Virus record (IMG/VR): IMGVR_UViG_2529293139_000004
Location: 1-9,910 of that record
Length of the DNA: 9,910 nucleotides
Strand: one strand, 5' to 3'
From: a virus
Lineage: Duplodnaviria > Heunggongvirae > Uroviricota > Caudoviricetes
A program made the position numbers and the translations under genes. Under the pieces are notes generated by a model. The model did no database searches. It was not told the origin of the DNA and saw only the letters and a program-made list of their open reading frames with translations. This document shows positions 334 through 9,910 of the stretch, one piece after another. How positions within the stretch are numbered: position 1 is the first letter of the stretch; each line of letters opens with the position of its first letter.

Positions 334-555
334 ATGCAATCCATTAACTTCCGTACCGCGCGCGGCAACCTTTCTGAAGTGCTCAACAATGTTGAGGCCG
401 GGGAAGAGGTTGAAATCACCCGCAGAGGCCGTGAGCCAGCAGTAATTGTCAGCAAGGCTACTTTCGAAGCCTACAAAAAAGCGGCGCTGGATGCTGAATT
501 TGCATCTCTGTTTGACACCCTGGACTCCACCAACAAGGAACTGGTTGACCGATAA
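334..555 (+). CDS. phd: Phd antitoxin (prevent-host-death), 73 aa
   Basis: Translation [44 protein letters not shown]... matches P1 Phd from memory. ATG at 334 is preceded by GAGGTG (325-330); the ORF-track start at 328 is an in-frame GTG just upstream. Stop overlaps the doc start (TAATG). Confidence 0.93.
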
Positions 556-935
556 TGAGGCATATATCACCGGAAGAACTGATAGCGCTTCATGATGCGA
601 ATATAAGCCGCTACGGCGGCCTGCCTGGCATGTCAGATCCGGGCAGGGCAGAGGCCATTATCGGGAGAGTTCAGGCCAGAGTTGCCTACGAAGAGATCAC
701 CGACCTTTTCGAAGTCTCCGCCACCTACCTGGTGGCTACAGCGAGAGGGCATATATTCAATGATGCCAATAAGCGTGCCGCGCTAAACAGTGCGCTGTTA
801 TTTCTACGCCGTAACGGGGTGCAGGTATTTGATTCACCTGAACTGGCAGACCTTACCGTAGGGGCTGCGACCGGAGAGATATCTGTATCTTCTGTCGCCG
901 ACACGTTACGTAGATTGTATGGTTCCGCGGAGTAG
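555..935 (+). CDS. doc: Doc toxin (death on curing), Fic-fold kinase, 126 aa
   Basis: 126-aa product with the Fic-type motif HIFNDANKR; sequence matches P1 Doc from memory. Translationally coupled to phd by a 1-nt overlap. Confidence 0.95.
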
Positions 936-939
936 ATTA

Positions 940-1119
940 ATGGCACGTAAATACAACAAATTGTCCCGTGAAGCGTTAAAGATGCTTCTTGATGGCGTGA
1001 GTCGCCGCGAGGTAAAGCAATACCTGGTTGGTAAGCAAATTGGTGCTAGGACCGCTATTGCTGTGTTATGCCGTCAGGAAATGGTTGTGCTTAAACAGAG
1101 AATGCCGGGCAGCAGATAA
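940..1119 (+). CDS. small hypothetical protein (59 aa from ATG 940), immediately downstream of doc; position corresponds to pdcA of P1
   Basis: ORF-track entry 919..1119; the internal ATG at 940 has GGAG about 12 nt upstream. Basic, possibly helix-rich product. No recognisable domain from sequence alone. Confidence 0.4.
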   Translation: MARKYNKLSREALKMLLDGVSRREVKQYLVGKQIGARTAIAVLCRQEMVVLKQRMPGSR

Positions 1120-1146
1120 AGCCCAATCAGTGATGAAAGGTGTGAT

Positions 1147-2190
1147 GTGAAAGCCGTAATTACTCCCTTTGTACAAAAAGAGCTTGGCGTCGCCACATTC
1201 AAAGTGGATCAGGAAGTCAGAAAGCTGGTGGAGGCTGGCCGTAAATTTATTATGGAGCCGGTGCCGCGTGAGTTAATCGAGCACATGGACGACGGCCTCG
1301 TTGTTTCCGAGCAAACTATGGCAACAAATGAGGCGTTGCAGCCGTTTTTTAACAGCGATGAACTGTTTCGCCGTATTGGTGGAATTGACACGCTGGTGGC
1401 GTGGTTGCGCAGGAAAGAGGGGCAATGCCAGGCCGCAGATCGTAGCTGGTGTGACAACCATATTGTCCACGCAGAACGAGACAATAGCGCGGTGTTGTTG
1501 TGCTGGCATCACGATAACCATTACCGGATGCGTGGTTTTAATGAGCTGAAAGAAACGCTGCATAATAATCGCGTTAACTGGATACTGGATGTCGCCCGTC
1601 AGGAAATGGGGCTTTCAGATGGCCATGATCTAAGTATTCAGGAACTGTGCTGGTGGGCTTTCATGCGCAACATGATGCACCGAATGCCGGAAGAAGTTTG
1701 CCGTATATCAATAAATAAGATGAAAGCCGCAACGCAGGATAGCGGACCTCTGAAAGAGGCGGATATTCGCCCGTATAACGATCGCGCTACAGCATATGTT
1801 CAGATGATGGAAGAACGCGCCGCGCCGATGCGTGCAAAAGTATGCCCTGTGGATGTTGACTCCGACCCTGGCATGGCGCATTTCAAAATACCAAAACTGC
1901 AATCGCTAAAATTACCTGAGTACATGGACTTTGTTGCTTCCCGTCCATGCTGTGGGTGTGGAGCGGCGGGAGCTGGCGCTCACATTACGCCTTATATCGT
2001 TCGTCATAGTCGATTATGCGCGCATGACATTTACGCAATTCCTCTGTGCCAGTCATGCCTGCGTGATATTGAGCGTGACCGCGATAATTGGGAGAAGACG
2101 CACGGTAGGCTGGCGATGCATCAACGATTGTTCTTTGATTACGCGCTTGGAGTCGGCGCTATCACAAGTTACTCGTCGAGCGTTATATAA
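1147..2190 (+). CDS. 347-aa Cys/His-rich protein with HNH-like zinc-binding motifs (position and size suggest the P1 pdcB / DUF968-type protein)
   Basis: GTG start at 1147 preceded by AAAGGTG. Long ORF with motifs CWHHDNH and PCCGCG...H...C...PLCQSC typical of HNH/zinc-hook-like nucleases. Assignment to the pdcB/DUF968 family is from memory and not verified. Confidence 0.7.
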
Positions 2191-2191
2191 A

Positions 2192-2233
2192 ATTGCTCTA
2201 ATGTATTGCTATTTCTTTAATCGATGGTATTAT
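2192..2233 (+). promoter_or_regulatory. C1-type operator(s) overlapping a sigma70-like promoter
   Basis: ATTGCTCTAATGTATTG (2192-2208) matches the P1 C1 operator consensus ATTGCTCTAATAAATTT; a second partial match ATTGCTATTTC starts at 2205. -35 TTGCTA (2206-2211) and -10 TATTAT (2228-2233) with 16-nt spacing. Confidence 0.6.
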
Positions 2234-2278: not shown

Positions 2279-2488
2279 ATGTTACTTAACTGGCAGGGAC
2301 GCCACTTCATGGAAATAAATCACTCACGAATAACATCGTACGAGATTGCGGATTACATGATCCGCACTAAATCTCTTCTATCAGCGAAAGAACTCGCAGC
2401 AATTCTTGAAAAGGAATACCCGCATCTGGATGTCGATAACGCCAGCATTTATCAAAATGAAGCTGGCGGAGTACGGCGGGCGCGATAA
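2279..2488 (+). CDS. hypothetical 69-aa ORF with good RBS downstream of the C1-operated promoter; possibly the N-terminal part of a frameshifted lpa-like gene
   Basis: ATG 2279 preceded by AGGTGA. Plausible protein-like translation. Overlaps the 5' end of the KilA-C ORF in another frame. Confidence 0.35.
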   Translation: MLLNWQGRHFMEINHSRITSYEIADYMIRTKSLLSAKELAAILEKEYPHLDVDNASIYQNEAGGVRRAR

Positions 2489-2804
2489 CCCTATGTACAT
2501 GATTAAGGTATCAGTAGCTAAAGGGATCCTGATTGGGAATTTTGCAAAGGTTGTTGGACTTAAGCAAAACGCGCTGTTTGTCTGGTTACGGGAGAACGGC
2601 ATCCTGATAGCGTCCGGTGGACGTAAAAATGTGCCGTTCCAGCAGTACATCAACGCGGGGTATTTCACGGTGAAAGAAGTGGTGCTGGATGATGAAGATG
2701 GCTACCAGATACGGTTGACGCCTCAATTAACGGGTAAAGGCCAGCAGTGGTTGACGCGTAAACTGCTCGATGCTGGCTTGTTAAAACCGGTGGCGGCTGA
2801 ATAA
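2406..2804 (+). CDS. KilA-C (ANT)-domain DNA-binding protein; occupies the position of the late promoter activator (lpa) region of P1
   Basis: Translation contains GNFAKVVGLKQNALFVWLRENGIL...NVPFQQYINAGYFTVKE, which fits the KilA-C/ANT domain pattern. ORF-track start 2406 is TTG; in-frame ATGs at 2430, 2457 and 2493 all lack a convincing SD, so the true start is unresolved. Confidence 0.55.
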   Translation: MKRNTRIWMSITPAFIKMKLAEYGGRDNPMYMIKVSVAKGILIGNFAKVVGLKQNALFVWLRENGILIASGGRKNVPFQQYINAGYFTVKEVVLDDEDGYQIRLTPQLTGKGQQWLTRKLLDAGLLKPVAAE

Positions 2805-2811
2805 TGGAAGA

Positions 2812-2833
2812 ATGCCCGGTTGATGCCGGGCAT
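2812..2833. terminator. hairpin between convergent genes (KilA-C gene and c1), probable bidirectional terminator
   Basis: 8-bp perfect stem ATGCCCGG/CCGGGCAT with 6-nt loop, followed on the plus strand by AATTTATT. Lies 8 nt after the KilA-C ORF stop and directly 3' of the c1 stop. Confidence 0.55.
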
Positions 2834-2836
2834 AAT

Positions 2837-3688
2837 TTATTGCGCGCTTTCGGGGTTGTCGTTTACTGGCTGCCCCTTCTTAGTTTTACGGCTGCGCGTA
2901 ACTGATGCGGCTGATTTGACCTTTTTCTCTTCGCGAGTGATGGCAATTTGTTTTTTTACATTTTCAATATCTGCCAGGCGATATATTTTTGCCTGGGGCC
3001 AGCGGTCGCAGATGATCGGTTCTATGGAGTCATATAGGCTAAATTTTGCTTTTTCGAATTCACCGTTGATGATAATTCCATCACGGAGAGTTTCATCGCA
3101 GATAAACACGCCACATAGTGGCACATGGTAACTCACTGATTTACCATCATTGTAGTTAGGGCTACTGGAAATGTAGTGGACGCGCAGCATTGTTTCGCTA
3201 AAGCCGTGTACGCGCATACGGAATTTTTCATCCTCCGGGTACTGCCTCATTAGCTCTTTTGTTGCTTCCAGGTTCTCTATGTATTTCGCACTGTGCTCAT
3301 TGATCCCCGCGCTTTTTTGGATGCGAATGTCCTTATCAATCAGATGAATAATGCGGCCAGCGGTCATGTTGACGCTGTTTACAGCTTCTGTCTGATAAGT
3401 TGTAACCTTACGTACACCGCGAAGGATGTTAGGCACTGGATATAAAATAGTCTTTGGGATATTGAGGTCTGGGTACTGTTCCAGTTCCCGCGCCATTAAA
3501 GTCCATTTATCAATTTCAGCCTGAATGCTGTCCGTTTCTTTGAACGGCAGAACGACAACCGGGCGAACAGGACGACCGTCGCTGGCGGCATCAACGTGTT
3601 GGGCGCGTGCAACAGCTTTTTTTAGAAAGAGATCCCTGAAGCTGACGAACTCCTGGTACAGTTGTTCGCCGTAGACATAATTTATCAT
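2837..3688 (-). CDS. c1: C1 repressor of lysis/lysogeny, 283 aa
   Basis: 283-aa product starting MINYVYGEQLYQEFVSFRDLF..., matching P1 C1 from memory. Strong SD (GGAGGAGG) upstream on the minus strand. Confidence 0.95.
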   Translation of the reverse strand: MINYVYGEQLYQEFVSFRDLFLKKAVARAQHVDAASDGRPVRPVVVLPFKETDSIQAEIDKWTLMARELEQYPDLNIPKTILYPVPNILRGVRKVTTYQTEAVNSVNMTAGRIIHLIDKDIRIQKSAGINEHSAKYIENLEATKELMRQYPEDEKFRMRVHGFSETMLRVHYISSSPNYNDGKSVSYHVPLCGVFICDETLRDGIIINGEFEKAKFSLYDSIEPIICDRWPQAKIYRLADIENVKKQIAITREEKKVKSAASVTRSRKTKKGQPVNDNPESAQ

Positions 3689-4841: not shown

Positions 4842-5873
4842 ATGTCCAATTTACTGACCGTACACCAAAATTTGCCTGCATTACCGGTCGATGCAACGAG
4901 TGATGAGGTTCGCAAGAACCTGATGGACATGTTCAGGGATCGCCAGGCGTTTTCTGAGCATACATGGAAAATGCTTCTGTCCGTTTGCCGGTCGTGGGCG
5001 GCGTGGTGCAAGTTGAATAACCGGAAGTGGTTTCCCGCAGAACCTGAAGATGTTCGCGATTATCTTCTATATCTTCAGGCGCGCGGTCTGGCAGTGAAAA
5101 CTATCCAGCAACATTTGGGCCAGCTAAATATGCTTCATCGTCGGTCCGGCCTGCCACGTCCAAGTGACAGCAATGCTGTTTCACTGGTCATGCGACGGAT
5201 CCGAAAAGAAAACGTTGATGCCGGTGAGCGTGCAAAACAGGCGCTGGCGTTCGAACGCACTGATTTCGACCAGGTTCGTTCACTCATGGAAAATAGCGAT
5301 CGCTGCCAGGATATACGTAATCTGGCATTTCTGGGGATTGCTTATAACACCCTGTTACGTATAGCCGAAATTTCCAGGATCAGGGTTAAAGATATCTCAC
5401 GTACTGACGGTGGGAGAATGTTAATCCATATTGGCAGAACGAAAACGCTGGTTAGCACCGCTGGTGTAGAGAAGGCACTTAGCCTGGGGGTAACTAAACT
5501 GGTTGAGCGATGGATTTCTGTCTCTGGTGTAGCTGATGATCCGAATAACTACCTGTTTTGCCGCGTCAGAAAAAATGGTGTTGCCGCGCCAACATCCACC
5601 AGCCAGCTATCAACTCGCGCCCTGGAAGGGATTTTTGAAGCAACTCACCGATTGATTTACGGGGCAAAAGATGACTCTGGTCAGCGATACCTGGCCTGGT
5701 CTGGACATAGTGCCCGTGTCGGTGCCGCGCGAGATATGGCCCGCGCCGGAGTTTCAATACCGGAGATCATGCAAGCTGGTGGCTGGACCAACGTAAATAT
5801 TGTCATGAACTACATTCGTAACCTGGATAGTGAAACGGGGGCTATGGTGCGCCTGCTGGAAGATGGCAATTAG
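4842..5873 (+). CDS. cre: Cre tyrosine recombinase, 343 aa
   Basis: Translation MSNLLTVHQNLPALPVDATSDEVRKNLMDMFRDRQAFSEHTWKMLLSVCRSWAAWCKLNNRKWFPAEPEDVRDYLLYLQARGLAVKTIQQHLGQLNMLHRRSGLPRPSDSNAVSLVMRRIRKENVDAGERAKQALAFERTDFDQVRSLMENSDRCQDIRNLAFLGIAYNTLLRIAEISRIRVKDISRTDGGRMLIHIGRTKTLVSTAGVEKALSLGVTKLVERWISVSGVADDPNNYLFCRVRKNGVAAPTSTSQLSTRALEGIFEATHRLIYGAKDDSGQRYLAWSGHSARVGAARDMARAGVSIPEIMQAGGWTNVNIVMNYIRNLDSETGAMVRLLEDGN is near-identical to canonical P1 Cre. Confidence 0.97.
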   Translation: MSNLLTVHQNLPALPVDATSDEVRKNLMDMFRDRQAFSEHTWKMLLSVCRSWAAWCKLNNRKWFPAEPEDVRDYLLYLQARGLAVKTIQQHLGQLNMLHRRSGLPRPSDSNAVSLVMRRIRKENVDAGERAKQALAFERTDFDQVRSLMENSDRCQDIRNLAFLGIAYNTLLRIAEISRIRVKDISRTDGGRMLIHIGRTKTLVSTAGVEKALSLGVTKLVERWISVSGVADDPNNYLFCRVRKNGVAAPTSTSQLSTRALEGIFEATHRLIYGAKDDSGQRYLAWSGHSARVGAARDMARAGVSIPEIMQAGGWTNVNIVMNYIRNLDSETGAMVRLLEDGN

Positions 5874-6479: not shown

Positions 6480-7040
6480 ATGAAAACAATCGAACAAAAA
6501 CTTGAACAGCGCCGCGAGTGGCAGAAGGCAGCCAGAGAACGAGCGATCGCTCGGCAACGGGAAAAGTTGGCTGACCCCGCCTGGCGAGAATCGCAATATC
6601 AGAAAATGCGGGATTCTATCGACCGCCGTATCGCTAAACAGAAAGAGTGCCCACCAGCCAGCAAAACGCGGAAAAGTGCGGTAAAAATAAAATCTCGTGG
6701 CTTGAAGGGACGAACACCGACGGCAGAGGAACGGCACATAGCCAATGCTCTTGGCGCTCTCCCCTGCATTGCGTGCTATATGCATGGAGTAATATCTGAA
6801 GAGGTGTCTCTGCACCATATTTCCGGTCGTACCGCGCCTGGTTGTCACAAAAAGCAATTGCCACTTTGTAGATGGCACCACCAGCATGCAGCACCGGCTG
6901 AAGTAAGAGCAAAATACCCCTGGCTGGTCCCTGTTCATGCCGATGGAGTGGTTGGAGGCAAGAAAGAATTCACCCTGCTGAACAAGTCAGAGATGGAGTT
7001 ACTGGCTGACGCCTATGAGATGGAAACTTTATTAGTCTAA
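6480..7040 (+). CDS. ref: Ref, RecA-dependent HNH endonuclease (recombination enhancement function), 186 aa
   Basis: 186-aa product with basic N-terminus and the HNH core (...CRWHHQH...); matches size and sequence character of P1 Ref. Confidence 0.92.
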   Translation: MKTIEQKLEQRREWQKAARERAIARQREKLADPAWRESQYQKMRDSIDRRIAKQKECPPASKTRKSAVKIKSRGLKGRTPTAEERHIANALGALPCIACYMHGVISEEVSLHHISGRTAPGCHKKQLPLCRWHHQHAAPAEVRAKYPWLVPVHADGVVGGKKEFTLLNKSEMELLADAYEMETLLV

Positions 7041-7108: not shown

Positions 7109-7876
7109 ATGGAGCATAAGCCAAATATGACAACGCACAAAATCCCAAAAAAATTTTGGGACAAAAAGATGGTTGAATGGCCATGTCCTAATTGCGGGCA
7201 AAAAACCCTGAGAATTTTAGACGAATCTTTCATCTGTAAGGACACTGCTGAAACTATCAAAATGCAGGCTGAGGAATGGTTTGACTTAGAGTATACAAGC
7301 TCGGTATTCAGTTGCATGTCACAGTGCGTAAGACCTCAATGTAAGGAGGTAGTGGCATGCACAGGCAGAAGTGGTCTAGAAGAAGATTGGGCCGAGCATA
7401 CAGGACTTTATTACTATCGCTGGTATGAACCATTAAGTTTTACTCCTGGGTTAAAGCTCTTTCTTATCCCGAACATGTGCCCTGAAGACATAGCCTTGCC
7501 TATAAACACCTCGTTTGCACTAAGCACAATCCATCCAGGTGCCGCTGCAAATCTAATAAGAACATCTGTAGAACGATTACTTACAGCTATCGGGGTAACG
7601 GAAACAAACGAAAAAGGGAATAGAATTAACCTCCATAATAGGATTGAGATGATCCCTAGTGAACATTCTGGCTTTAAAAGCCTGTTATTTGCGATTAAGT
7701 TTCTTGGAAATGCGGGTAGCCACCGCTATGAAAACGTTACCGCTGATGACTTGGATAACTCATACGAGATCATGAATTTTATTCTAAGAGATTTATATTC
7801 GGATAATCGCAAAAAGGTTAGTGAGTTAGCTAATAATCTAGACAAAAAATTTAATCCTCAAAAACAAAAAGGTTGA
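7109..7876 (+). CDS. 255-aa protein: N-terminal Cys-rich zinc-ribbon-like region plus C-terminal DUF4145-like helical domain; candidate accessory/defense gene
   Basis: CPNCGQ...C...CMSQCVRPQCKEVVAC in the N-terminal half. C-terminal AAANLIRTSVERLL...FAIKFLGNAGSH...YEIMNFILRDLY fits the DUF4145 pattern as I recall it. Gene is visibly AT-rich compared with flanking P1 core genes. Confidence 0.75.
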   Translation: MEHKPNMTTHKIPKKFWDKKMVEWPCPNCGQKTLRILDESFICKDTAETIKMQAEEWFDLEYTSSVFSCMSQCVRPQCKEVVACTGRSGLEEDWAEHTGLYYYRWYEPLSFTPGLKLFLIPNMCPEDIALPINTSFALSTIHPGAAANLIRTSVERLLTAIGVTETNEKGNRINLHNRIEMIPSEHSGFKSLLFAIKFLGNAGSHRYENVTADDLDNSYEIMNFILRDLYSDNRKKVSELANNLDKKFNPQKQKG

Positions 7877-7995
7877 CATCTGACAAGTGACTTCAGTCAG
7901 AATCATCACACGCCCGGTACGGATGGATCCCTTTTCAAATATTCCATGGACGGCACAGTCTGAGTACCGGGCGCTACCTTCCGTTGTATTGCTAA

Positions 7996-8020
7996 GCCGC
8001 CGCTGGTGGCTTTCTTTTTT
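7996..8020 (+). terminator. rho-independent terminator-like hairpin 12 nt upstream of the next start codon
   Basis: GCCGCC-GCT-GGTGGC (one G-U pair) followed by TTTCTTTTTT (8011-8020). Confidence 0.5.
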
Positions 8021-8031
8021 GTAGGGGCGCT

Positions 8032-8673
8032 ATGGATAAGAAAATATGCGTTGTTTCAATGAGCGTCGGCAAACCGGCGTCAATGACTGCTGCATGGATC
8101 AATAATGAGCTGATAATGGCTGAGCGGACCAGCTACCCTGAACGCCGCCGCGATATGGAACTCCAGCTGCTGCGCGAATTGCGAGAAAAAGAGGAAAAGA
8201 GTTTTATCGTGCTGGTGGAAGAGGAAAACAGCTTTATTACGGGTCGAGTTGGCCAGCGTGTAAGGTTGCGCGATCCCTTCATGAACGGCAGGCCGGTACT
8301 AATTGAAGCAATGCAGATTTACAAGGAGCTGGAACGCCAGAAAGCAATCAAGTTACCGCGCAAGGAATCCGGCAAATACATCCTCCACCAAAGCATCTTC
8401 GATTCCGAACACGATAAAAAAGGCGATGAATTTTTCAACATCAACTGGAGCGAAATAACGACAGAGCATGTTCTGACGTTACTATGTTGCTTTGTGACGG
8501 AATACAACAACGTTGCCAGCGCCGACTACATCAGGGCAATGGCTGGAGAAGTTGAGGCCCGCCAAGAACCATCGTTACTAAGTCCACTGATTAACATAAT
8601 TCTGGGCACCCAGATACTGGAACAAAAAAAAGTGCCGAAAGGGGTATTAACAGGCAAGCATAATTATTTTTAA
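8032..8673 (+). CDS. hypothetical 213-aa protein with no domain I can recognise
   Basis: ATG 8032 preceded by AGGGG. Long ORF with GC content typical of the P1 backbone, flanked by AT-rich genes. May be a core phage gene (mat-like position) or a partner of neighbouring genes. Confidence 0.7.
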   Translation: MDKKICVVSMSVGKPASMTAAWINNELIMAERTSYPERRRDMELQLLRELREKEEKSFIVLVEEENSFITGRVGQRVRLRDPFMNGRPVLIEAMQIYKELERQKAIKLPRKESGKYILHQSIFDSEHDKKGDEFFNINWSEITTEHVLTLLCCFVTEYNNVASADYIRAMAGEVEARQEPSLLSPLINIILGTQILEQKKVPKGVLTGKHNYF

Positions 8674-8766: not shown

Positions 8767-9657
8767 ATGAAAGCAATGGGGAATGAAGTTTATCAAAGTC
8801 AAAAATGCAAGTTGAAATATTCAAAATCTCAAATTGATAGGGCTGCTCAATTGATAAGGCACGGGTGTAGTGACGAAGAAAGGCAGCAATCTATTGAAAT
8901 GATACAAAATTTCCGTGAGCTGCATCTTTATCCATTAATGCTCATGAAAAATCATTTAGCAAGAGCAGCTGCTAAGGTTGACAAAGACAAAAAGATTCTC
9001 GTTGCAAGAAGACTTAAGCGACTTTCTACCATAATAGATAAACTAGAGCGTCCTAGTCTTGATGGAGGCAGAACTAGCAATGCAATTAAATTAACACGGA
9101 TGCAGGACGTTGGCGGATGTAGGGCCATTGTCAGAAACTTAGACCAGTTGATACAGCTAAAGGAACGTCTTTTAAAAAGCAAATCTGTTCATAGGATTGT
9201 TAAAGAGTATGATTATCTTACTCCCAAAGACAGCGGCTATAGTGGAATCCACCTTGCATACAGTTGCTTCGATCAGAAAGAGGATCAATATCCGTGGCGA
9301 AAAACAAAGATTGAGATACAGTTAAGAACTCAATTGCAGCATGCTTGGGCTACTAGCCTTGAAATAATTGATACCCTTGAAGGTATCAAGCTGAAAACTT
9401 CAAGTGAAGGGCATCCAGAATGGAGACGATTTTTCTATCTAGCCGGATGTCTTGTAGCGCACGACGAAAAAGCCTGCACTCTTGATGAGCTAGTTGTATC
9501 TCAGTATGAAGGCGAGCTTAAAGAGCTGGAACGGACTTTATCTGTACGGAGGAAACTAAGCACATACACCATCGCCGGTAGTGACTCCAACTTACTGATA
9601 GTGTTTTATGTTCAGATAATGCCCGATGACCTTGTCATGCAGCTCCACCGATTTTGA
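8767..9657 (+). CDS. RelA/SpoT-family nucleotidyltransferase (toxSAS/CapRel-like), 3' end interrupted by IS1: native codons 1-270 (8767-9576), then 26 IS1-derived codons
   Basis: Synthetase-domain motifs [33 protein letters not shown] and [13 protein letters not shown]. The IS1 IRR begins at 9577 inside the reading frame, so the last 26 aa and the stop are IS1 sequence. Confidence 0.8.
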
Positions 9658-9910
9658 GAACGACAGTGACTTCCGTCCCAGCCTTGCCAGATGTTGTCTC
9701 AGATTCAGATTATGTCGCTCAATGCGCTGAGTGTAACGCTTGCTGATAACGTGCAGCTTTCCCTTCAGGCGTGATTCATACAGCGGCCAGCCATCCGTCA
9801 TCCATACCACGACCTCAAAGGCCGACAGCAGGCTCAGAAGACGCGCCAGTGTGGCCAGAGTGCGTTCACCGAAAACGTGCGCCACAACTAGTCCTCCGTA
9901 TCCTGTCATA
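9577..9910 (-). mobile_element. IS1 insertion sequence, partial (IRR and 3' part of insB; continues beyond window end)
   Basis: GGTAGTGACTCCAACTTACTGAT at 9577-9599 is an IS1 right inverted repeat variant; the downstream sequence encodes the InsB C-terminus on the minus strand. Confidence 0.9.
9592..9910 (-). CDS. insB: IS1 transposase InsB, C-terminal portion (N-terminus beyond window)
   Basis: Minus-strand translation ...[98 protein letters not shown] matches IS1 InsB; stop codon lies within the IRR. Confidence 0.88.

What the first reader, a model, noticed from the sequence alone, without database searches (positions are those of the whole stretch)
1147..2190. 347-aa Cys/His-rich HNH-like protein next to the addiction module
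Two metal-binding-like clusters (CWHHDNH and PCCGCG...H...C...PLCQSC...) suggest an HNH/zinc-finger nuclease fold. The function of this protein class in P1-like elements is, to my knowledge, uncharacterised. Its position beside phd-doc and under a GTG start could indicate a role in maintenance or defense.
Basis: partly seen in the sequence, partly recalled or inferred. Interest (0 to 1): 0.45.

Follow-up and report, generated by a model that had tools for sequence, protein, structure and literature searches.

The report
P1 PdcB: degenerate HNH-fold zinc protein
This gene is pdcB of a P1-like phage-plasmid, a known but uncharacterised member of a phage family with the HNH nuclease fold; in the whole P1 lineage it keeps its zinc-binding cysteines but has lost the histidines that would cut DNA, so it is probably a DNA-binding relic, not an active nuclease.

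Summary
The ORF is real: 1147-2190, GTG start, 347 aa. It is pdcB of a P1-like plasmid-prophage (95.8% nt identity to P1 pdcB). It matches Pfam DUF968 (2e-49), already placed in the His-Me/HNH superfamily in 2017, and RefSeq already names it 'HNH endonuclease'.

Both Cys/His clusters behave as four-ligand zinc sites across the family.

The new point is active-site loss. Of 113 non-P1 relatives, 109-111 carry His at each of four active-site positions (PHH on strand 1, CxxxH..H on the helix). None of the 17 P1-clade proteins has His at three of these, and one has it at the fourth.

Every homolog examined next to the late activator gene lpa is degenerate, down to 39% identity. Every lambdoid-prophage homolog examined (RusA/KilA-N upstream; Q downstream where recognised) is intact. 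dN/dS of 0.10-0.16 shows the protein is still under selection.

Linkage to phd-doc occurs only in P1 proper. Published pdcB knockouts are viable.

Verdict: the fold is right, active nuclease function is doubtful, and a maintenance or defence role is unsupported.

The parts
1136..1142 (+). Shine-Dalgarno-like AAAGGTG, 4 nt before the GTG start of pdcB
   Evidence: read directly from the sequence
1147..2190 (+). pdcB coding sequence (347 aa, GTG start, stop included)
   Evidence: ORF list; 95.8-99% nt identity to pdcB of P1, P7, RCS47; Pfam DUF968 2e-49 and PHROG 96 6e-127; dN/dS 0.10-0.16
1147..1314 (+). aa 1-56: conserved N-terminal segment with a low-confidence structure (two short strands, one helix)
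   Evidence: M1, T6, P7, G14 and K19 are invariant in A1; pLDDT 47-68
1315..1626 (+). aa 57-160: N-terminal zinc module (helices, then hairpin 106-111/114-119, then helix 120-129). Inferred zinc ligands are C94, C102, C119 and H122. Contains CWHHDNH (nt 1501-1521).
1627..1896 (+). aa 161-250: middle region and start of the Pfam DUF968 match. Contains the ELCWW motif and the P1-clade-specific Cys185 and Cys233.
   Evidence: Pfam match covers aa 161-337; E166, L167 and W170 conserved; C185 and C233 are Cys only in the P1 clade; pLDDT 43-82
1897..2166 (+). aa 251-340: C-terminal Ref/YbcO-type His-Me finger with a degenerate active site. Zinc knuckles are C268/C271 (nt 1945-1962) and C301/C304 (nt 2041-2058). 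Strand 1 is TPYIV (nt 1987-2001) in place of DPHH[LI]. The AHD motif (nt 2020-2028) is retained. The helix has L305 and E309 in place of two His.
919..1119 (+). pdcA (66 aa), overlaps the end of doc by 17 nt; found only in P1 sensu stricto
   Evidence: ORF list; P1 annotation; PHROG 3345; no similarity to the 85-aa upstream ORFs of the 67% and 39% lineages
334..935 (+). phd-doc addiction operon immediately upstream; no terminator-like site in the doc-pdcA or pdcA-pdcB junctions (one weak match lies inside doc)
   Evidence: Pfam PhdYeFM and Fic/DOC; P1 annotation; promoter/terminator scan
2192..2233 (+). C1 operator Olpa and promoter Plpa, starting 2 nt after the pdcB stop
   Evidence: position transferred from the P1 annotation; promoter-like site at 2206-2233
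2279..2439 (+). 5' remnant (161 nt) of lpa, the conserved downstream neighbour of pdcB; truncated in this element by deletion
   Evidence: blastn against RCS47

Best explanation
pdcB encodes the P1-lineage member of the phage DUF968/YdfU family. The protein has two zinc-stabilised modules.

The C-terminal module is a His-Me (HNH) finger of the Ref/YbcO type. In lambdoid prophages the family keeps a complete active site. There it sits in the nin region, next to RusA and just upstream of the late antiterminator Q, so it is presumably a recombination or branch-processing nuclease (inferred).

In P1-like phage-plasmids the gene holds the equivalent position, directly upstream of the late activator gene lpa. 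The finger has lost the general-base His pair, a conserved loop Lys, and both helix His residues. It keeps the four zinc cysteines and the invariant His-Asp pair.

The most likely reading is a folded, selected, zinc-bound protein that still binds DNA but no longer cuts it by the HNH mechanism. The Smad MH1 domain is the precedent for such a dead His-Me finger. PdcB is accessory for lytic growth and lysogeny.

Shown here: gene identity, family, fold, ligand conservation, loss of active-site residues, purifying selection, and synteny. Inferred: zinc binding, DNA binding, lack of catalysis, and the ancestral nuclease role.
For: Identity and family:
- 95.8% nt identity to P1 pdcB.
- Pfam DUF968, 168 bits against a cut-off of 27.8.
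- PHROG 96.
- His-Me group 7 in PMC5714182.

Fold:
- AF2 gives two beta-beta-alpha units.
- The C module aligns to the Ref motif by hhalign, probability 83%, and to YbcO by profile.

Active-site loss:
- In 113 non-P1 representatives His occupies the equivalents of positions 283, 284, 305 and 309 in 110, 111, 110 and 109 sequences.
- In 17 P1-clade proteins position 284 is L, I or M, position 283 is Y or F (one His), position 305 is Q or L, and position 309 varies.
- Lys291, present in 62 of 65 others, is Cys in the P1 clade.
- The AF2 strand 281-284 ends at I284, where the general base should sit.

Still under selection:
- dN/dS is 0.16 against P1 and 0.10 against the Klebsiella homolog.
- The closest 90% cluster holds 4062 member sequences.

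Synteny:
- All lpa-linked homologs (P1 96-99%, Klebsiella 67%, Pantoea and a metagenome contig 39%) are degenerate.
- All lambdoid homologs, with RusA, KilA-N or Rha upstream and Q downstream where recognised, are intact.
- The Pantoea locus has a NinX gene upstream.
- 82 of 84 lpa-anchored loci have a full-length pdcB upstream; the other two are cut by contig ends.

Dispensability: CRISPRi knockdown and pdcB::kan.

Precedent for dead His-Me fingers that keep DNA binding.
Against: - No biochemistry exists for PdcB, YdfU or YbcO, so even the ancestral nuclease activity is inferred.
- His293-Asp294 are invariant in the P1 clade and Asp294 in the whole family, so part of a metal site survives. 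A non-canonical catalytic arrangement cannot be excluded. Candidates are Tyr283 acting as in PacI, or His293 as base.
- The P1 lineage comprises only about three independent depths (96-99%, 64-69%, 39%). The link between lpa and degeneracy may therefore be one inherited event, not a repeated association.
- DNA binding was not tested, and no model coordinates were available to check zinc geometry.
Confidence: 0.6

Rival explanations
1. PdcB is an active HNH endonuclease, as RefSeq names it and the first reader proposed. It would use a non-canonical catalytic set in the C-terminal finger, for example Tyr283 as nucleophile or base (PacI-like), or His293/Asp294.
For: - His-Me fold and family membership.
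- Zinc cysteines, H293 and D294 are invariant.
- Tyr is at position 283 in 15 of 17 P1-clade proteins and in the 39% lineages.
- PacI shows that Tyr can replace His (PMC5714182).
- Purifying selection.
Against: - Position 283 is Phe in P0007, a cluster of 146 sequences, and in P0057.
- The PacI Tyr sits in the omega loop, not on strand 1.
- Both helix His residues and the loop Lys are also gone, and the omega loop is 5 residues shorter.
- H293 is not invariant in the catalytically intact relatives (89 of 113).
Confidence: 0.22
2. The catalytic centre is the N-terminal module. CWHHDNH would be a second, divergent His-Me active site, and the C-terminal finger would only bind DNA.
For: - The hairpin-helix geometry at 106-129 is confidently predicted.
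- W120, D123, N124 and N141 are highly conserved.
Against: - hhalign against Ref and against the C module found nothing.
- No conserved His at the end of strand 1. That position is E/R in P1 and R/K/Y elsewhere.
- D123 and N124 vary in 20-30% of relatives, and H121 in 27%.
- C119 and H122 show the Cys/His interchange typical of structural zinc ligands.
Confidence: 0.08
3. PdcB is a maintenance or defence factor that works with the phd-doc addiction module.
For: - In P1 proper, pdcA overlaps doc.
- The scan found no terminator-like site in the doc-pdcA or pdcA-pdcB junctions and no promoter-like site on the + strand upstream of pdcB (one weak terminator-like match lies inside doc, at 779-794), so co-transcription is plausible.
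- In this window pdcB is intact although lpa and pacAB next to it are deleted.
Against: - phd, doc and pdcA are absent upstream of pdcB in the 67% (Klebsiella) and 39% (Pantoea, metagenome) lineages.
- No PADLOC hit.
- pdcB::kan P1 forms stable lysogens (PMC10999674).
- The conserved neighbour is lpa, not phd-doc.
Confidence: 0.07
4. pdcB is a decaying relic with no function.
For: Loss of catalytic residues; nonessential in the laboratory.
Against: - dN/dS is 0.10-0.16.
- Full-length ORFs persist across Escherichia, Salmonella, Klebsiella and Pantoea lineages down to 39% identity.
- The P1 clade has gained invariant cysteines.
- pdcB is listed among the most conserved genes of 77 P1-like phage-plasmids (PMC9603915).
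Confidence: 0.03

Closest known systems
YdfU-type DUF968 proteins of lambdoid prophages (E. coli Qin YdfU; Yersinia and Serratia homologs P0028-P0053)
   Same: Same length (about 330-350 aa) and same architecture over 98% of the protein. Same N-terminal zinc module, ELCWW middle motif and C-terminal zinc finger. Same position directly upstream of the late-gene regulator.
   Different: Only 24-31% identical. They keep DDPHH...TKAHD...CRxxHxxLH, whereas PdcB has I(T/S)P(Y/F)(I/L/M)V...LCAHD...CxxC(Q/L). They are followed by Q, where a Q homolog was recognised, and often coupled to RusA, whereas PdcB is followed by Lpa. Neither has been characterised experimentally.
YbcO (DLP12 prophage, DUF1364, PDB 3G27)
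   Different: YbcO is a single 96-aa domain. It keeps the general-base His (AH) and the CxxCH His. The sequence match to the PdcB family is marginal (E 0.39).
P1 Ref, RecA-dependent HNH nuclease (PDB 3PLW), encoded in this same window at 6480-7040
   Different: Different Pfam family: PF16786 does not hit PdcB. Ref keeps LHH and WHH and is a proven nuclease (PMC4330346). Ref has a disordered basic N-terminus instead of the PdcB zinc module.
Smad MH1 domain and Enpp nuclease-like domain (catalytically dead His-Me fingers)
   Same: His-Me fold retained, catalytic His lost, nucleic-acid or ligand binding kept (PMC5714182). This is a functional analogy for what PdcB may have become.
   Different: Unrelated eukaryotic lineages with no sequence relationship. 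Their DNA binding is demonstrated, PdcB's is not.
Lambda NinG/Rap and RusA (nin-region branch nucleases)
   Same: The same genomic niche as the canonical DUF968 proteins, and a proposed similar role (PMC5714182). RusA often overlaps the DUF968 gene.
   Different: Different families (PF05766, PF05866). No sequence match to PdcB was seen in Pfam.

Membership tests
Pfam DUF968 (PF06147) | Match to the family HMM above the gathering score | tested here: met
   168.3 bits against a cut-off of 27.8, aa 161-337 covering profile positions 1-171 of 171
YdfU-type two-module DUF968 proteins | Full-length collinear alignment including the N-terminal C..C/H..C..H/C module | tested here: met
   98% query coverage to P0021-P0054. 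C94, position 102, C119 and position 122 are conserved as Cys or His in 109-111 of 111 sequences.
His-Me finger (HNH) superfamily | Beta-beta-alpha fold | tested here: met
His-Me finger (HNH) superfamily | Structural zinc knuckles (CxxC before strand 1 and at the helix N-terminus) | tested here: met
   C268, C271, C301 and C304 are present in 17 of 17 P1-clade proteins. Metal binding itself was not measured.
His-Me finger (HNH) nucleases, catalytically competent | General-base His at the end of strand 1 | tested here: not met
   I284 in the window and L/I/M in 17 of 17 P1-clade proteins, against His in 111 of 113 relatives. This position aligns to the conserved His of YbcO and the second His of Ref LHH.
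His-Me finger (HNH) nucleases, catalytically competent | Metal-ligand His or Asn on the core helix | tested here: not met
   L305 in the window (Q in 16 of 17) and a variable position 309, against His in 110 and 109 of 113 relatives
His-Me finger (HNH) nucleases, catalytically competent | Metal-dependent DNA cleavage | not testable with these tools
   Needs purified protein
Ref family (PF16786, RecA-dependent nuclease) | Match to the family HMM | tested here: not met
   PF16786 hits the window's Ref (1.4e-49) but not PdcB at E<=0.1. Only a remote profile similarity was found.
Anti-phage defence systems (PADLOC-DB) | Match to any defence-protein model | tested here: not met
   0 families at E<=0.1 for PdcB and PdcA
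Component of the phd-doc addiction module | Conserved co-occurrence with phd-doc across homologs | tested here: not met
   Present only in the 96-99% clade. Absent in L002-L004, L027, L007 and L030.
Terminase-associated HNH proteins (HK97 gp74 type) | Gene adjacent to terminase or portal genes, and required for packaging | tested here: not met
   lpa lies between pdcB and pacA. The canonical relatives lie upstream of Q and the lysis genes. pdcB is nonessential whereas pacAB are essential.

The most novel reading that the evidence does not exclude
P1-like phage-plasmids turned an ancestral nin-region HNH nuclease into a non-catalytic, zinc-rich DNA-binding factor. This clade gained three invariant cysteines (C185, C233, C291) which, with C168, could form a third metal site. 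The gene has been co-inherited with lpa since before the Escherichia/Pantoea lineages split. It might therefore act on late transcription, on pac-site or branched-DNA handling before packaging, or as a decoy or antagonist of host or phage nucleases.
Probability: 0.15. Interest if true: 0.5.

Novelty: new variant of a known kind. Interest (0 to 1): 0.27.

Why it matters
PdcB is one of the most conserved genes of P1-like phage-plasmids, which are common carriers of resistance genes, yet it has no known function. Public annotation calls it an 'HNH endonuclease'. The comparison here suggests that label over-states what the P1 version can do.

The result also gives a clean natural pair for experiment: catalytically intact lambdoid YdfU-type proteins and degenerate P1 PdcB. 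This pair can test what the DUF968 family does and what a dead His-Me finger is kept for.

The practical impact is modest. It corrects an annotation and sharpens a hypothesis; it does not reveal a new system.

Tried and rejected
- PDB sequence search with PdcB alone found nothing.
- NCBIfam found nothing for PdcB.
- PADLOC found nothing for PdcB or PdcA.
- hhalign of the N module against Ref and against the C module gave no similarity, so an internal duplication is not supported.
- Foldseek of the N module against the PDB gave no hit at E<1.
- The afdb50 library was unavailable.
- Apparent fusions of the N module to tail-fibre, tip or portal domains in metagenome proteins look like chimeric assemblies and were ignored.
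- I looked for a conserved small upstream partner. PdcA and the two 85-aa ORFs upstream in the other lineages share no similarity.
- Widening the set of lpa-linked lineages largely failed. The species-representative genomes gave only 4 loci, and the viral collection gave 80 near-identical P1 copies.
- Rfam and the repeat scan found nothing relevant in the gene.
- The P1 genome paper and the first Ref paper are not held in the library.

Full report
**Observation.** The window is a segment of a P1-like plasmid-prophage. It carries phd (334-555), doc (555-935), pdcA (919-1119), the ORF in question (1147-2190), a broken lpa, c1 (2837-3688, minus strand), cre (4842-5873) and ref (6480-7040). It ends in cargo genes and an IS1. 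It has 12 Cys and 15 His. It is 95.8% identical in DNA to P1 pdcB and 99% to the RCS47 and vB_EcoM-673R5 alleles.

**Family and fold.**
- PdcB matches Pfam DUF968 over aa 161-337 (2e-49) and PHROG 96 'HNH endonuclease' over its whole length.
- NCBIfam, PADLOC and a direct PDB sequence search gave nothing.
- DUF968, together with DUF1364 (YbcO, PDB 3G27), is group 7 of the 2017 His-Me finger classification. That paper notes RusA, Q and antirepressor neighbours and proposes a recombination role (PMC5714182).
- RefSeq already labels P1 PdcB 'HNH endonuclease', while the original annotation says 'unknown function, 25% identical to YdfU'.
- An AlphaFold2 model from a 48-sequence alignment (mean pLDDT 73.8) has two beta-beta-alpha units: 106-111/114-119/120-129 and 281-284/297-300/302-310.
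- hhalign assigns the Ref similarity to the C-terminal unit (probability 83%, E 9e-6). It finds nothing between the N-terminal unit and either Ref or the C-terminal unit.
- So the C-terminal cluster is securely a His-Me finger. The N-terminal cluster is a zinc module of uncertain, at most remotely related, fold.

**The metal clusters.** I aligned about 200 family representatives to a family HMM. They came from a word-indexed search, a profile search of 1.84 billion representatives (775 hits at E<=0.001), and their alignments.
- In the N module, C94 and C119 are essentially invariant. Position 102 is His or Cys in 109 of 111 sequences, and position 122 is His or Cys in 111 of 111. This is the signature of a four-ligand structural zinc site. 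CWHHDNH therefore contributes two zinc ligands (C119, H122), not an HNH catalytic triad.
- D123, N124 and H121 are conserved but vary in 20-30% of relatives. No His is conserved on the first strand.
- In the C module, C268, C271, C301 and C304 form the usual two knuckles.

**The active site is degenerate.**
- Outside the P1 clade the C module reads CxxCG..ADDPHH[LI]IGHGQGGMxTKAHDxFxIPLCRxxHxxLH.
- Among 113 such proteins, His occupies the equivalents of PdcB positions 283, 284, 305 and 309 in 110, 111, 110 and 109 cases. The loop Lys (position 291) is present in 62 of 65.
- In 17 P1-clade proteins (64-99% identical to the window) position 284 is L, I or M. Position 283 is Y or F, with one His. 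Position 305 is Q, or L in this window. Position 309 varies. Position 291 is Cys, and the omega loop is five residues shorter.
- Position 284 is the last residue of the predicted first strand. It aligns with the only His that YbcO keeps there and with the second His of Ref LHH, so it is the general-base position.
- His293-Asp294 and the zinc cysteines are retained.
- By the criteria used for the superfamily, this is an active-site loss like that of Smad MH1 or the Enpp nuclease-like domain, which keep binding but not catalysis.
- A PacI-like tyrosine mechanism is unlikely, because a large Salmonella cluster has Phe at position 283.

**Not a pseudogene.**
- dN/dS is 0.16 against P1 and 0.10 against a 67%-identical Klebsiella homolog. 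By segment, the C-terminal part gives 0.24 against P1; against the Klebsiella homolog dS is saturated there.
- The nearest 90% cluster has 4062 member sequences.
- pdcB is listed among the most conserved genes of 77 P1-like phage-plasmids (PMC9603915).
- The P1 clade has also gained three invariant cysteines (C185, C233, C291) that relatives lack. I could not test whether they form a third metal site.

**Genomic context.**
- Lambdoid prophage homologs lie in the nin region. RusA, KilA-N or Rha genes lie upstream, often overlapping, and the Q antiterminator lies downstream wherever my Q references recognised it. All have intact motifs.
- Every homolog examined that is followed by lpa is degenerate. 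These are P1 proper, a Klebsiella-type lineage at 67%, and a Pantoea phage-plasmid and a metagenome contig at 39%. The Pantoea locus has a NinX gene upstream and ParM downstream.
- In 82 of 84 lpa-anchored loci a full-length pdcB sits immediately upstream. The other two are cut by contig ends.
- By contrast, phd-doc-pdcA are upstream only in the 96-99% clade. The other lineages have unrelated genes there.
- In P1 proper, pdcA overlaps doc, and the scan found no terminator-like site in the doc-pdcA or pdcA-pdcB junctions and no promoter-like site on the + strand upstream of pdcB (one weak terminator-like match lies inside doc). Co-transcription with phd-doc is therefore plausible but incidental.
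- The C1 operator Olpa and promoter Plpa begin 2 nt after the pdcB stop.

**Experimental record.** pdcB is scored nonessential by CRISPRi and by deletion (PMC10695390). It is listed as 'unknown' and used as a neutral insertion site (PMC10067587). pdcB::kan P1 infects and forms stable lysogens (PMC10999674). I found no biochemical study of PdcB, YdfU or YbcO.

**Interpretation.** PdcB is the P1-lineage ortholog of the lambdoid YdfU-type protein. It occupies the equivalent slot, the last early-region gene before the late regulator. It is a two-zinc-module protein whose His-Me finger has lost its catalytic histidines but is kept by selection. I consider a non-catalytic DNA-binding role the most likely (0.6). 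A non-canonical nuclease is the main rival (0.22). A catalytic N module (0.08), a maintenance or defence role with phd-doc (0.07) and a functionless relic (0.03) are less likely.

**Verdict.** The gene, family and fold are known. The lineage-wide active-site loss and its association with lpa appear not to have been described in the literature I could search. I rate it a new variant of a known kind, of modest interest.

Noticed in passing
window 2279-2836: Compared with phage RCS47, the element has two deletions. lpa is cut after 161 nt (window 2439). A 74-bp internal pacB fragment follows (2437-2510). Then comes the 3' end of ant (from 2507), then c1. The 3' part of lpa, pacA, most of pacB and the 5' part of ant are therefore missing, so this plasmid-prophage should be unable to activate late genes or package DNA. 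The ORF at 2406-2804 with a KilAC domain is a junction artefact. The same structure occurs at 99.7% identity in at least eight E. coli plasmids (pEC974-2 and others).
   Followed up: yes
window 8767-9910: A RelA/SpoT-domain gene (PADLOC candidate defence family PDC-S33, 3e-70) is interrupted by IS1 at nt 9576/9577. The intact gene is 375 aa in pEC974-2.
   Followed up: partly
window 7109-8673: Two cargo ORFs lie between ref and the RelA/SpoT gene: a DUF4145 protein (255 aa) and an unknown 213-aa protein. They have only faint PADLOC matches. This may be a defence-type islet downstream of cre-ref.
   Followed up: no
window 6480-7040: ref encodes the RecA-dependent HNH nuclease (1e-114 to PDB 3PLW) with an intact motif. 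The same element therefore carries a live Ref-type His-Me nuclease 4.3 kb from the degenerate finger of PdcB, its best structural match.
   Followed up: partly
window 1627-2028 (PdcB aa 168, 185, 233, 291): C185, C233 and C291 are invariant in the P1 clade but are A/I/L/V, L/V/K/A and Lys in the rest of the family. With C168 they could form an extra metal site. C233 lies in a stretch with pLDDT<50. This was not testable without model coordinates.
   Followed up: partly
window 1147-1314 (PdcB aa 1-56): The N-terminal 56 residues are strongly conserved across the whole family (MKAVITPF..ELG..K) but are modelled with low confidence. They may form a partner-binding segment.
   Followed up: no
window 919-1119: pdcA (66 aa, PHROG 3345) overlaps doc by 17 nt and is restricted to P1 sensu stricto. 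Its only other match is a sub-threshold one to a transposase N-terminal domain model (E 0.033).
   Followed up: partly
L030 / L095 (Candidatus Pantoea alvi contig PQJV01000018.1, 94.4 kb): A distant P1-like phage-plasmid has NinX, an 85-aa ORF, a PdcB-like gene (39% identity) and Lpa in a row, followed by a ParM-type partition gene on the other strand. Its PdcB keeps one of the four active-site histidines (H305), so it looks like an intermediate stage of the loss.
   Followed up: partly
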